A stretch of DNA of 64,000 nucleotides from Escherichia coli (lineage in GTDB: Bacteria > Pseudomonadota > Gammaproteobacteria > Enterobacterales > Enterobacteriaceae). Below the pieces are notes generated by a model that worked only from the letters and a program-made list of their open reading frames with translations, made no database searches and was not told the origin of the DNA. The translations under genes and the position numbers were made by a program. Below are positions 30,870-60,372 of this stretch, one piece after another. How positions within the stretch are numbered: the first letter of the stretch is position 1; each line of letters starts with the position of its first letter. The stretch is from assembly GCF_024223415.1 (NCBI RefSeq), contig NZ_CP100500.1. The stretch is one strand, 5' to 3'.

Positions 30870-30945
<76 letters not shown>

Positions 30946-30980
30946 TTGGGTGGTCTGTGCCTTACAGCACTTTCAAATTT

Positions 30981-31056
<76 letters not shown>

Positions 31057-31092
31057 TTGGGTGGTCTGTGCTTTGCAGCACTTTTCAAATTT

Positions 31093-31168
<76 letters not shown>

Positions 31169-45250: not shown

Positions 45251-45784
45251 ATGCGCCTGCTCCCTCTCGTTGCCGCAGCGACAGCTGCATTTCTGGTCGT
45301 TGCCTGCAGTTCTCCTACGCCGCCGCGTGGCGTGACCGTAGTGAATAATTTCGACGCTAAACGCTATCTCGGTACCTGGTATGAGATTGCCCGTTTTGAT
45401 CACCGCTTTGAACGTGGACTGGAAAAAGTCACCGCAACATACAGCCTGAGGGATGATGGCGGCCTGAATGTCATTAATAAAGGCTATAACCCTGACAGAG
45501 AAATGTGGCAGCAGAGTGAAGGGAAAGCGTACTTTACCGGCGCACCAACTCGCGCTGCGCTGAAAGTGTCATTCTTTGGTCCTTTCTATGGCGGTTATAA
45601 CGTTATTGCACTCGATCGGGAATACCGCCATGCGCTGGTTTGCGGCCCGGACCGCGACTACCTGTGGATACTCTCCCGCACGCCAACCATTTCTGACGAA
45701 GTGAAACAGGAGATGCTGGCAGTCGCGACCCGGGAAGGGTTTGATGTCAGTAAGTTTATTTGGGTACAGCAGCCCGGTAGTTAG
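45251..45784 (+). CDS. blc: outer-membrane lipocalin Blc
   Basis: ORF 177 aa [25 protein letters not shown] (lipobox) then lipocalin GTWYEIA motif. Confidence 0.92.
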
Positions 45785-46098
45785 TGAGTGCTGAGTTTCA
45801 GACCAATAATCCCCAATACGATTAACGCCAGACTCGCCAGACGCATCGGGTTAGCGGACTCACCGAGCAGCACAATGCCGGTGATGGCCGCGCCGACTGC
45901 GCCAATACCCGTCCACACGGCATAAGCCGTCCCTACTGGTAACGATTTCATCGCCCAGGCAAGTAGCGCCATACTGACAATCATCGCCGTCACGGTAATA
46001 ACACTCGGCGTCAAACGACTAAAGCCGTGGGTATATTTCAGGCCAACGGCCCATACCACTTCCAGCAGACCAGCAATAACTAAGATAATCCAGGACAT
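45781..46098 (-). CDS. gdx: SMR-family guanidinium exporter Gdx (SugE)
   Basis: ORF 45781..46161(-) trimmed to [26 protein letters not shown], 105 aa, conserved membrane-embedded Glu. Confidence 0.9.
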
Positions 46099-46114
46099 AT
46101 CAGGCTCCGGAGAA

Positions 46115-46162
46115 TTGGGGCCGTCCCCGGTGAAAAGAGGCGTTTGCAGGTCGTCCTGCAAA
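46115..46162 (-). ncRNA. guanidine-II (mini-ykkC) riboswitch in the gdx 5' leader
   Basis: transcribed strand reads UUGCAGG-ACGA-CCUGCAA ... GGGG-ACGG-CCCC: two short GC-rich hairpins with ACGR tetraloops, directly upstream of the gdx RBS. Confidence 0.6.
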
Positions 46163-46278
46163 GCTGATGGTTGAACGGATATTTTGCCAGGTGGCAGAGG
46201 AATTTCAACTATTACCTTTGTGACTATCGCAAAAAAACAAACGGCACGACACAGCTGTCGTACCGTTATTGCTTATTG

Positions 46279-46425
46279 CTATTGCTGCGCTTTCGTTGCT
46301 GCGCCAGAAATCGCGTTACCGCCATCAGAAATGTCTTCACCAACGCCACGCGTAGTGTTGCAGGCAGTTAATACTGTTGAAAGCACCAGAACAGAAAAGA
46401 TCGCTGCAATTGTCTTCTTCACCAT
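46279..46425 (-). CDS. ecnB: entericidin B lipoprotein (bacteriolytic)
   Basis: minus-strand 48-codon [51 protein letters not shown], lipobox LTAC, RBS GGAAG; too short for the ORF track. Confidence 0.85.
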
Positions 46426-46535
46426 AACGTCTTCCTTTTAGGTAATGTTATTTATGTTTGCCTATAGCAAATTAATAATAGACAACATCGCCAAAAATGA
46501 TGGAAATCTGATGATTTTTCGGAAGAGAAGAAAAA

Positions 46536-46661
46536 TTAGCTGGCAGCGCGGGAGATGGAGTTGCCGAGATGTTTGATATCTTCGCCGAAACCGCGAGCGG
46601 TGTTACAGCCCGTGAGCAGCGTGCTGGCAAGCAAAACAAGAACGATAAGGCGTTTCATCAT
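46536..46661 (-). CDS. ecnA: entericidin A lipoprotein (antidote to EcnB)
   Basis: minus-strand 41-codon [44 protein letters not shown], paralogous to EcnB. Confidence 0.85.
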
Positions 46662-46712
46662 CTCTGACCTGAATAAGTGATGGTGCAGCCTGCAGGCCGC
46701 ACCACAACCGCA

Positions 46713-60296: not shown

Positions 60297-60372
60297 GCCC
60301 GGATAGCTCAGTCGGTAGAGCAGGGGATTGAAAATCCCCGTGTCCTTGGTTCGATTCCGAGTCCGGGCACCA
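60297..60372 (+). tRNA. pheU: tRNA-Phe (anticodon GAA)
   Basis: GCCCGGATAGCTCAGTCGGTAGAGCAGGGGATTGAAAATCCCCGTGTCCTTGGTTCGATTCCGAGTCCGGGCACCA; cloverleaf, GAA anticodon, encoded CCA. Confidence 0.95.

What the first reader, a model, noticed from the sequence alone, without database searches (positions are those of the whole stretch)
46099..46162. Guanidine-II riboswitch readable in the gdx (sugE) leader
The mRNA strand upstream of gdx has two short GC-rich hairpins with ACGA and ACGG tetraloops separated by a short linker, the defining architecture of the mini-ykkC guanidine-II riboswitch. It sits immediately 5' of the ribosome-binding site of an SMR guanidinium exporter.
Basis: partly seen in the sequence, partly recalled or inferred. 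Interest (0 to 1): 0.3.

Follow-up and report, generated by a model that had tools for sequence, protein, structure and literature searches.

The report
Known E. coli gdx guanidine-II riboswitch

Summary
The observation and the interpretation both hold. On the minus strand, directly upstream of gdx/sugE (ATG at 46098), the mRNA reads UUUGCAGG-ACGA-CCUGCAAA (P1, 46162..46143), a 14-nt linker, GGGG-ACGG-CCCC (P2, 46128..46117), 8 nt, the ribosome-binding GGAG (46108..46105), 6 nt, then AUG.

- **Family match:** Rfam Guanidine-II (RF01068) matches 46116..46162(-) at 50.4 bits, against a threshold of 32.
- **Not chance:** the double GGACGRCC motif occurs once in the window and in none of 100 shuffles.
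- **Conservation:** 45 of 80 loci found through the Gdx protein alone carry the same element just upstream of the gene. That includes all 19 Enterobacterales loci with enough upstream DNA. The stems covary strongly.
- **Origin:** the window is E. coli chromosome, and the leader is identical to K-12 from the -10 element to the ATG.

Published work used this exact RNA. PDB 5NDI is this P1 hairpin bound to guanidine. The aptamer was studied by NMR, SAXS and single-molecule FRET. A lacZ reporter spanning window 46200..46105 is induced by guanidinium. A 20-bp deletion of P2 (window 46111..46130) makes gdx constitutive. EcoCyc curates the element.

The pairing that hides the ribosome-binding site without ligand remains unresolved. 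Verdict: already known, low interest.

The parts
46181..46208 (-). Promoter-like site for gdx: TTGAAA (46208..46203), 16-nt spacer, TG-extended CAAAAT (46186..46181). It predicts a transcript start about 46172-46176, roughly 10-14 nt before P1.
   Evidence: Consensus scan, 9 of 12 matches with TG before the -10. It is the only such site in 45700..46700, but shuffles average 1.0 site, so the scan alone is weak. A/T-rich -10-like hexamers sit at a similar distance upstream of P1 in the other Enterobacterales leaders. The start site was not determined here.
46143..46162 (-). P1 hairpin of the aptamer: UUUGCAGG-ACGA-CCUGCAAA, 8 bp with an ACGA tetraloop (46154..46151).
   Evidence: Rfam alignment. 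Base-pair probabilities are 0.76-1.0 in the full leader. Seven of 8 pairs show compensatory changes across 46 leaders. The sequence is identical to the RNA crystallised with guanidine as PDB 5NDI.
46129..46142 (-). Linker CGCCUCUUUUCACC (14 nt), drawn in the literature as carrying the anti-Shine-Dalgarno sequence.
   Evidence: Length and sequence vary among homologues (8-21 nt). Position 46139 is polymorphic C/G within E. coli. Predicted linker-SD pairing is only 0.03.
46117..46128 (-). P2 hairpin of the aptamer: GGGG-ACGG-CCCC, 4 bp with an ACGG tetraloop (46124..46121).
   Evidence: Rfam alignment. The loop and closing G-C pairs are invariant in 46 leaders. Its deletion (window 46111..46130) gives constitutive gdx expression in strain ZX-1.
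46099..46116 (-). Expression platform: AAUUCUCC, the Shine-Dalgarno GGAG (46108..46105), and the spacer CCUGAU.
   Evidence: Sequence. GGAG lies 6 nt before the ATG. An SD-like GGAG/GAGG/GGGG element lies 4-9 nt before the start in all 45 leaders analysed.
45781..46098 (-). gdx (sugE) coding sequence, 105 aa plus stop: the SMR-family guanidinium/H+ antiporter, the regulated gene.
   Evidence: ORF list. RefSeq annotation in S51 and MG1655. NCBIfam NF008512 at 193.5 bits. Closest solved structure is 6WK5, E = 1.5e-32.
46240..46267 (-). Intrinsic terminator of the upstream gene ecnB (12-bp stem followed by UGUUUUUUUG). It marks the upstream limit of the gdx transcription unit.
   Evidence: Terminator scan. 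ecnB is annotated at the corresponding place.

Best explanation
This is the E. coli chromosomal guanidine-II (mini-ykkC) riboswitch, which controls the guanidinium exporter Gdx. The short gdx leader forms two hairpins, P1 and P2, each capped by an ACGR tetraloop. When intracellular guanidinium rises, one guanidinium ion binds in each loop and the two loops dock head to head through their C-G pairs (a kissing-loop complex). This locks P2 into its hairpin form and holds the leader extended. The Shine-Dalgarno GGAG, 8 nt downstream of P2, then becomes available to ribosomes, so Gdx is made and exports guanidinium: an ON switch. Shown for this exact RNA: the sequence and family match (here), ligand binding and loop-loop docking, guanidinium-dependent reporter induction, and derepression on deletion of P2 (all published). 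Inferred: which pairing occludes the SD without ligand. My best guess is that the P2 sequence itself (3' CC, loop GGC) pairs with the SD region, so that P2 formation and SD occlusion are mutually exclusive. Also inferred: that control is purely translational.
For: Tested here:
- Rfam RF01068 scores 50.4 bits against a gathering score of 32.
- The motif is unique in the window and absent from 100 shuffles.
- 45 of 80 loci retrieved through the Gdx protein alone carry an RF01068 hit on the gene's strand. In 44 it ends 13-66 nt before the start. All 19 Enterobacterales loci with upstream DNA have it.
- Loop-anchored stems are 89% paired against 66% in shuffles. Eleven of 14 pairs have double changes. 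The covariation score is 0.618 against 0.178 (0 of 500 shuffles), and collapses when the 3' partners are slid.
- The leader is identical to K-12 from the -10 element to the ATG, and is present in 5412 of 5426 complete E. coli genomes.

Published on the same sequence:
- PDB 5NDI is the RNA UUUGCAGGACGACCUG(BrC)AAA with guanidine, which equals window 46162..46143.
- NMR/SAXS of the 49-mer and single-molecule FRET of the 47-mer show ligand- and Mg-dependent kissing.
- A lacZ reporter spanning window 46200..46105 is induced by Gdm+, with half-maximal induction at 3.8 mM.
- The ZX-1 deletion, equal to window 46111..46130, removes P2 and makes gdx constitutive. Added Gdm+ also enhances the Gdx-dependent Cs+ resistance.
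- EcoCyc curates the regulation.

For the OFF-state guess:
- ViennaRNA pairs the SD with the P2 sequence at 0.54, the linker at 0.03 and the 5' flank at 0.00. P2 is only 17% formed in the free leader.
- P2 is the dominant predicted SD partner in 19 of 45 homologous leaders, against 6 for the linker and 1 for the 5' flank.
- Deleting P2 derepresses, which a linker anti-SD alone would not predict.
- Huang et al. proposed such a P2-overlapping alternative stem for G. violaceus.
Against: Nothing argues against the identity of the element. The mechanism detail is less secure.
- Enforcing P1+P2 in the nearest-neighbour model does not raise predicted SD accessibility in E. coli (0.26 to 0.27), nor across 45 leaders (Wilcoxon p = 0.30 and 0.17).
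- The deletion alleles lower the computed opening energy by only 0.6-1.5 kcal/mol.
- The published reporter replaces the native spacer and start (GCCUGAUAUGUCC) with an NcoI site and still switches. So the predicted GGGAC:GUCCU pairing with codon 2 is not required.
- The ZX-1 evidence is an mRNA-level increase with n = 1 per condition. An effect on transcript level or stability is therefore not excluded.
- RefSeq records do not annotate the element.
Confidence: 0.96

Rival explanations
1. The element acts mainly on transcript level rather than on ribosome access alone. Possible routes are premature termination after P1, Rho-dependent termination, or mRNA decay when the leader is untranslated.
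For: The terminator scan flags P1 plus CGCCUCUUUU as terminator-like. gdx mRNA is strongly up in the P2-deletion strain ZX-1 by RNA-seq. [quoted passage not shown]
Against: The U-run starts 6 nt after the stem, not directly at its base. It is not conserved: linkers in the homologues are CGCAUCACUC, CGCAAUUUCA and G/C-rich in other phyla. P1 is formed in both states. The class is described as exclusively translational, and the P. aeruginosa member shows guanidine-dependent ribosome loading in a purified system. The RNA-seq had n = 1, and higher mRNA is a common secondary effect of translation.
Confidence: 0.12
2. The region encodes an N-terminal extension of Gdx. An in-frame TTG at 46161 opens a 126-aa ORF that runs through both hairpins.
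For: The mechanical ORF list gives 45781..46161(-), 126 aa, with no stop between the TTG and the annotated ATG.
Against: All annotations start at the ATG, giving 105 aa. Homologues align from residue 1 (MSW/MAW). A GGAG sits 6 nt before that ATG. Linker and spacer lengths differ by non-multiples of 3 among close relatives, so the frame is not conserved. What varies upstream is compensatory base pairs, not codons.
Confidence: 0.01
3. The two GC-rich hairpins are a chance resemblance or a generic structural element with no ligand-sensing role.
For: The whole-leader fold is not unusually stable (z = -1.27; 24 of 200 shuffles fold as well).
Against: Rfam scores 18 bits above threshold. The motif is absent from 100 shuffles. 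It is conserved at the same position in 45 loci across several phyla, with covariation. There is direct structural and reporter evidence on this sequence.
Confidence: 0.01

Closest known systems
Guanidine-II riboswitch (mini-ykkC, Rfam RF01068): the E. coli sugE/gdx representative itself (PDB 5NDI; NMR 49-mer; smFRET 47-mer; lacZ reporter)
   Same: It is the same element. The window's leader is identical to K-12 MG1655 from the -10 hexamer to the ATG. P1 equals the crystallised RNA. The reporter primers and the ZX-1 deletion map exactly onto the window.
   Different: One base in the promoter spacer (window 46198: T here, C in K-12). Nothing differs in the transcribed leader.
Pseudomonas aeruginosa guanidine-II riboswitch (PDB 5VJ9; RelE ribosome-loading assay)
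   Same: Two ACGR-capped hairpins, an SMR exporter gene downstream, a guanidinium-dependent ON switch, and millimolar sensitivity (K1/2 2.2 mM in vitro against 3.8 mM in the E. coli reporter).
   Different: In P. aeruginosa the SD is sequestered by a P0 helix between the 5' and 3' flanks. In E. coli the predicted 5'-flank-to-SD pairing is 0.00, although a 5-bp AUCAG/CUGAU complement to the SD-AUG spacer can be seen by eye. E. coli P2 has an ACGG loop and only 4 bp.
Plasmid-borne sugE with its guanidine-II leader (Citrobacter-type blc-sugE module on conjugative resistance plasmids)
   Same: Same architecture, and the same neighbouring lipocalin gene (blc). The aptamer on Providencia plasmid p8538-NDM-1 has the same P1 and P2 as E. 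coli, with a 13-nt linker.
   Different: About 79% DNA identity. It is mobile: 682 plasmid records, mostly conjugative. The window copy is the chromosomal E. coli locus.
Guanidine-I (ykkC), guanidine-III and guanidine-IV riboswitches
   Same: Same ligand, and the same class of regulated genes (Gdx/SugE exporters, guanidine carboxylases).
   Different: Unrelated folds. Classes I and IV act on transcription. None was detected in the window or in the 80 Gdx loci at Rfam gathering scores.

Membership tests
Guanidine-II riboswitch (mini-ykkC, RF01068) | Two tandem hairpins, each capped by an ACGR tetraloop | tested here: met
   ACGA at 46154..46151 and ACGG at 46124..46121, on an 8-bp and a 4-bp stem.
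Guanidine-II riboswitch (mini-ykkC, RF01068) | Conserved G-C pairs closing each loop (GG-ACGR-CC) | tested here: met
   GGACGACC and GGACGGCC are present. The loop-closing G-C pair is invariant, and the next pair is G-C in at least 42 of 44 distinct leaders.
Guanidine-II riboswitch (mini-ykkC, RF01068) | Score at or above the curated covariance-model threshold | tested here: met
   50.4 bits against a gathering score of 32, E = 5.2e-7, full model 1-48.
Guanidine-II riboswitch (mini-ykkC, RF01068) | Stems maintained by compensatory change in homologous leaders | tested here: met
   Eleven of 14 pairs have changes on both sides. Cells are 89% paired against 65.9% in shuffles. The covariation score is 0.618 against 0.178, 0 of 500 shuffles. 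Slid controls give 0.05-0.21. Loci were collected through the protein, not the RNA, but only those with an Rfam hit entered the alignment.
Guanidine-II riboswitch (mini-ykkC, RF01068) | Poorly conserved linker of variable length between the hairpins (most at least 13 nt) | tested here: met
   14 nt here; 8-21 nt in 45 leaders with little sequence conservation outside Enterobacterales. The criterion is as stated.
Guanidine-II riboswitch (mini-ykkC, RF01068) | Placed next to the ribosome-binding site of a guanidine-detoxification gene (SMR exporter or carboxylase) | tested here: met
   P2 ends 8 nt before GGAG and 18 nt before the ATG of gdx. The gene is a SugE equivalog, annotated as guanidinium exporter.
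Guanidine-II riboswitch (mini-ykkC, RF01068) | Binds guanidinium in the loops and forms a P1-P2 kissing complex | not testable with these tools
   Published for this sequence: crystal structure 5NDI of P1 with guanidine, NMR/SAXS of the 49-mer, smFRET of the 47-mer.
Guanidine-II riboswitch (mini-ykkC, RF01068) | Guanidinium-dependent activation of the downstream gene | not testable with these tools
   Published: a lacZ reporter with window 46200..46105 is induced by Gdm+. Deletion of P2 gives constitutive gdx.
Gdx/SugE clade of SMR transporters (the regulated gene) | Full-length match to the SugE equivalog model above its cut-off, and not to the drug-exporting Qac/EmrE models | tested here: met
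   NF008512 scores 193.5 bits against a cut-off of 126. All Qac/EmrE models score below their cut-offs. The best solved relative is 6WK5, E = 1.5e-32, against EmrE at about 1e-10.

The most novel reading that the evidence does not exclude
The most novel reading not excluded concerns the OFF state of the E. coli switch. It may not be the linker anti-SD drawn in the literature. Instead it may be an alternative stem in which the P2 sequence itself pairs with the SD region, so that P2 is mostly unformed until guanidinium-dependent docking to P1 captures it. On that reading, natural alleles in the E. coli population tune or abolish the switch. One example is the 29-nt deletion of linker plus P2 in a urinary isolate. 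Others are the common 46139 C/G and 46112 C/U variants. The deletion could give some strains constitutive Gdx.
Probability: 0.3. Interest if true: 0.25.

Novelty: already known. Interest (0 to 1): 0.06.

Why it matters
It matters little as a discovery. The element is curated in EcoCyc and Rfam, and it is one of the model guanidine-II riboswitches. Its practical value is as a correct annotation: the RefSeq records examined do not mark it, and most still call the gene a quaternary-ammonium efflux pump. It also explains why Gdx-dependent phenotypes (tolerance to guanidinium and caesium) appear only with guanidinium or with leader mutations. The only open scientific point touched here is the unresolved ligand-free conformation of the E. 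coli expression platform.

Tried and rejected
1. Thermodynamic test of the switch. I folded the predicted leader (46176..46069) and 44 homologous leaders, free and with P1+P2 enforced. SD accessibility did not rise significantly. The 2D model cannot represent the kissing complex, so the result is inconclusive rather than negative.

2. P0-helix model as in P. aeruginosa. The 5' flank AUCAG could pair with CUGAU in the SD-AUG spacer, but its predicted probability is about 0, and I could not find it by eye in most of the Enterobacterales leaders I compared. Not supported.

3. Linker anti-SD model. Predicted pairing is 0.03, and the candidate CCUC is polymorphic in E. coli (CGUC). Weakly disfavoured but not refuted.

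4. Pairing of the P2 5' strand with AUGUCCU. It is in the minimum-free-energy structure and fits the unusual UCC conservation at codon 2. However, the published reporter lacks that sequence and still switches, so the pairing is not essential.

5. Folding of the deletion and SNP alleles. Only small changes resulted.

6. Papers I could not read because they are not held: Sherlock et al. 2017 (PMC5340285), Higgins et al. 2019 (PMC6560137) and Slipski et al. 2020 (PMC7648145). Their content is cited only through other papers.

7. The whole-leader fold z-score of -1.27 is unremarkable. This is expected for a short bistable element and was not used as evidence.

Full report
**What is in the sequence**

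The window is Escherichia coli chromosome. The 500 bases around the finding are 100% identical to strain S51 and occur in 5424 of 5426 complete E. coli genomes. The local gene order is frdCD, ampC and blc on the plus strand, then sugE/gdx, ecnB, ecnA and efp on the minus strand, then epmB.

gdx is on the minus strand at 45781..46098. Read on that strand, the upstream sequence is:
- UUUGCAGG-ACGA-CCUGCAAA, which is P1 (46162..46143)
- CGCCUCUUUUCACC, the linker (46142..46129)
- GGGG-ACGG-CCCC, which is P2 (46128..46117)
- AAUUCUCC, then GGAG (46108..46105), then CCUGAU, then AUG at 46098

Upstream, an intrinsic terminator for ecnB (46267..46240) and a promoter-like TTGAAA-16-TGgCAAAAT site (46208..46181) bracket a short leader of about 75 nt.

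**Is it more than chance?**

- Rfam's Guanidine-II model (RF01068) matches 46116..46162(-) over its whole length, at 50.4 bits against a gathering score of 32, E = 5e-7. It is the only non-tRNA hit in the window.
- The pattern GGACGRCC-N(10-30)-GGACGRCC occurs once in the window and in none of 100 dinucleotide-preserving shuffles.
- The overall fold energy of the leader is not exceptional (z = -1.27). That is unsurprising for a small bistable element, and I did not use it as evidence.

**Independent comparative test**

I collected 80 loci from the species-representative genome collection using only the Gdx protein as query, then scanned them with all Rfam families.
- Forty-five loci carry a Guanidine-II hit above threshold, always on the gene's strand. 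In 44 it ends 13-66 nt before the start codon. The exception is L069, where the hit lies about 900 nt upstream.
- All 19 Enterobacterales loci that include upstream DNA have the hit.
- No locus had a guanidine-I, -III or -IV hit.

I anchored the stems on the invariant loops, which avoids alignment ambiguity, and counted pairs for 46 leaders (44 of them distinct).
- 89.0% of cells are standard pairs, against 65.9% in shuffles.
- Eleven of 14 pairs change on both sides.
- The covariation score is 0.618, against 0.178 in shuffles (0 of 500 reach it) and 0.05-0.21 when the partners are slid by 1-3 columns.
- Seven of the 8 P1 pairs covary, and the two loop-proximal G-C pairs of each hairpin are nearly invariant, as the family consensus requires.

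One caveat applies: only loci with an Rfam hit entered this alignment, so the test shows that the stems are maintained, not that the family exists.

**What is already known about this very RNA**

- **Sequence identity.** The transcribed leader is identical to K-12 MG1655. The only difference in 200 bases is one T/C in the promoter spacer and one T in the terminator tail.
- **Crystal structure.** Huang, Wang and Lilley crystallised 'E. coli P1_8bp', UUUGCAGGACGACCUG(BrC)AAA, with guanidine as PDB 5NDI (PMC5486947). That is window 46162..46143 to the letter.
- **NMR and SAXS.** Schamber et al. studied the 49-nt E. coli sugE aptamer (P1, native 13-nt linker as they count it, ACGG-capped P2). They showed Mg2+- and guanidinium-dependent loop-loop interaction (PMC9300104).
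- **Single-molecule FRET.** Fuks et al. followed the 47-mer and saw open, Mg-dependent and kissing states. They also refer to in-line probing of the E. coli RNA by Sherlock et al. 2017 (PMC9094411).
- **Reporter.** Steuer et al. cloned the leader in front of lacZ with primers that map to window 46200..46183 (one mismatch, the K-12 allele) and 46105..46126. They found induction by guanidinium with half-maximal effect at 3.8 mM (PMC11423145).
- **Deletion mutant.** Kojima and Ito found that the caesium-resistant E. coli ZX-1 carries a 20-bp deletion, AGAATTGGGGCCGTCCCCGG, which is window 46111..46130. It removes P2, gdx is constitutively up, and adding guanidinium enhances the Gdx-dependent Cs+ resistance (PMC13064478).
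- **Curation.** EcoCyc curates Gdx as regulated by a guanidine-II riboswitch (PMC8357350).

The regulated gene is the SugE/Gdx equivalog (NCBIfam 193.5 bits against a cut-off of 126). Its closest solved relative is PDB 6WK5, deposited as 'Multidrug resistance protein, SMR family', which to my knowledge is the Gdx-Clo transporter.

**How it works: what is shown and what is inferred**

Shown, in the literature and on this sequence: guanidinium binds in the ACGR loops, the two loops dock, and expression goes up with guanidinium. Shown here: family membership, position and conservation.

Inferred: how the ribosome-binding site is hidden without ligand. Three models are in print.
1. An anti-SD in the linker, as drawn for E. 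coli.
2. A P0 helix between the 5' and 3' flanks, for P. aeruginosa, supported there by RelE ribosome-loading assays.
3. An alternative stem overlapping P2 and the ribosome-binding site, suggested for G. violaceus.

Nearest-neighbour folding of the predicted E. coli leader favours the third. The SD pairs with P2-derived nucleotides with probability 0.54 (3' CC with GG; loop GGC with GCC), with the linker at 0.03, and with the 5' flank at 0.00. P2 itself is only 17% formed, and forcing P1+P2 costs 1.3 kcal/mol. Across 45 homologous leaders, P2 is the dominant predicted partner in 19, the linker in 6 and the 5' flank in 1. Deletion of P2 derepresses gdx, which fits this model better than a linker anti-SD, because the deletion leaves the linker intact.

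The support is weak, for three reasons. Enforcing the hairpins does not increase predicted SD accessibility (0.26 to 0.27 in E. coli; Wilcoxon p = 0.30 and 0.17 across leaders). The deletion alleles lower the computed opening energy by only 0.6-1.5 kcal/mol. And a secondary-structure model cannot represent the geometry of the kissing complex. The part of the predicted structure that pairs GGGAC with GUCCU at codon 2 cannot be essential, because the published reporter replaces that sequence and still switches. Whether control is purely translational is also not settled for E. coli, since the ZX-1 evidence is an mRNA increase with n = 1 per condition.

**Rivals**

- **Transcription-attenuation reading.** P1 plus CGCCUCUUUU is flagged as terminator-like. 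This is unlikely as the main mechanism. The U-run is offset from the stem and is not conserved, and P1 is formed in both states.
- **In-frame TTG ORF from 46161**. This is an artefact of mechanical ORF calling. Relatives start at MSW/MAW, the frame is not conserved upstream, and variation upstream is in compensatory pairs.
- **Chance.** Excluded by the results above.

**Verdict**

The element is already known in detail, so novelty is 'already known' and interest is low. The side observations are recorded separately: a natural 29-nt deletion of linker plus P2 in one urinary isolate, two common leader polymorphisms that spare the hairpins, unusual conservation of codon 2, and about 680 plasmid copies of a Citrobacter-type version.

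Noticed in passing
L083:2501-2554 (E. coli strain 167, NZ_CM132950, urine isolate); corresponds to window 46113..46141: This genome lacks 29 nt of the leader. The whole linker and P2 are gone, while P1, the SD and the ATG are intact (CCUGCAAAC|CUCCGGAG). It resembles the laboratory ZX-1 20-bp deletion (window 46111..46130), which makes gdx constitutive. It may therefore be a natural riboswitch-dead, possibly constitutive, allele, or an assembly error.
   Followed up: partly
window 46139 and 46112 (minus-strand linker position 4; 4 nt 5' of the SD): Of 5412 E. coli genomes with the 86-nt leader, 3152 are identical to the window and 2260 differ by 1-4 bases. The 3 full-length variants sampled carry C-to-G in the linker (CGCCUC to CGCGUC), and 2 of them also C-to-U in CUCC just before the SD. 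Neither change touches the hairpins. The first alters the CCUC that the literature's anti-SD drawing would need. Only 4 variants were inspected (the fourth is the strain 167 deletion), so no full tally exists.
   Followed up: partly
window 46095..46093 (codon 2 of gdx, UCC): Among 21 Enterobacterales gdx genes, Ser-2 is UCC in 15 of 16 cases (codon entropy 0.34 bits). This is the most conserved codon choice of any 4- or 6-fold degenerate residue in the gene; other Ser codons show 0.7-1.9 bits. GUCCU is complementary to GGGAC of P2 and is paired with it in the minimum-free-energy structure. However, the published reporter works without it, so the constraint may instead reflect initiation-region effects.
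   Followed up: partly
plasmid collection, e.g. NZ_CP043215.1 48639-49032; L008 (Providencia plasmid p8538-NDM-1): 682 plasmid records carry a sugE about 79% identical to the window copy. They are mostly conjugative, from Escherichia, Salmonella and Klebsiella. The match includes the leader, and the gene sits next to a lipocalin (blc) gene. The aptamer on L008 is identical to that of Citrobacter werkmanii L007. This is consistent with mobilisation of the Citrobacter blc-sugE region, riboswitch included.
   Followed up: partly
L025, L027, L029, L031-L036, L039, L042-L044, L046-L049, L054-L056, L058, L060-L064, L066, L068, L074-L076, L078, L080, L081: Thirty-five of 80 Gdx-homologue loci (L011 among them only because it lacks upstream DNA) have no Rfam hit at gathering score for any guanidine riboswitch class within 1.5 kb. 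Either the elements are sub-threshold, or these homologues are regulated differently.
   Followed up: no
L051, L052, L057, L065, L067, L070, L072, L077 (Mesorhizobium and relatives), locus positions about 1385-1500: In these leaders P2 ends 44-66 nt before the start codon instead of 13-28 nt. The extra stretch contains its own inverted repeats (for example gatcggcatc...ccgatgctgg), which suggests a longer and different expression platform.
   Followed up: no
L069:545-589: The guanidine-II hit lies about 900 nt upstream of the Gdx homologue. It presumably controls another gene at the head of an operon.
   Followed up: no
window 46181..46186 and the equivalent positions in L003-L023, L026-L079: A -10-like hexamer sits at a similar distance upstream of P1 in Enterobacterales (CAAAAT, TAGAAT, TATAAT...). 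A CTATAT/CCATAT-like motif lies within about 10 nt of P1 in alphaproteobacterial leaders. The aptamer therefore begins almost at the transcript 5' end throughout.
   Followed up: no
window 45781..46162; RefSeq records NZ_CP015995, NC_000913, NZ_CM132950: None of the RefSeq records examined annotates the riboswitch. PGAP names the gene 'quaternary ammonium compound efflux SMR transporter SugE', whereas MG1655 calls it 'gdx, guanidinium exporter'.
   Followed up: yes
window 30873..31168 (-) and 60297..60369 (+): Three identical tandem tRNA genes lie about 111 nt apart on the minus strand, with anticodon loop CUUGCCAAG (GCC, glycine). A single tRNA lies on the plus strand with anticodon loop AUUGAAAAU (GAA, phenylalanine).
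   Followed up: no
window 46279..46661 (-): The entericidin pair ecnB (48 aa, 46279..46425) and ecnA (41 aa, 46536..46661) lies directly upstream of gdx. The review notes that the original 'suppressor of groEL' phenotype that named sugE may actually belong to ecnB.
   Followed up: no
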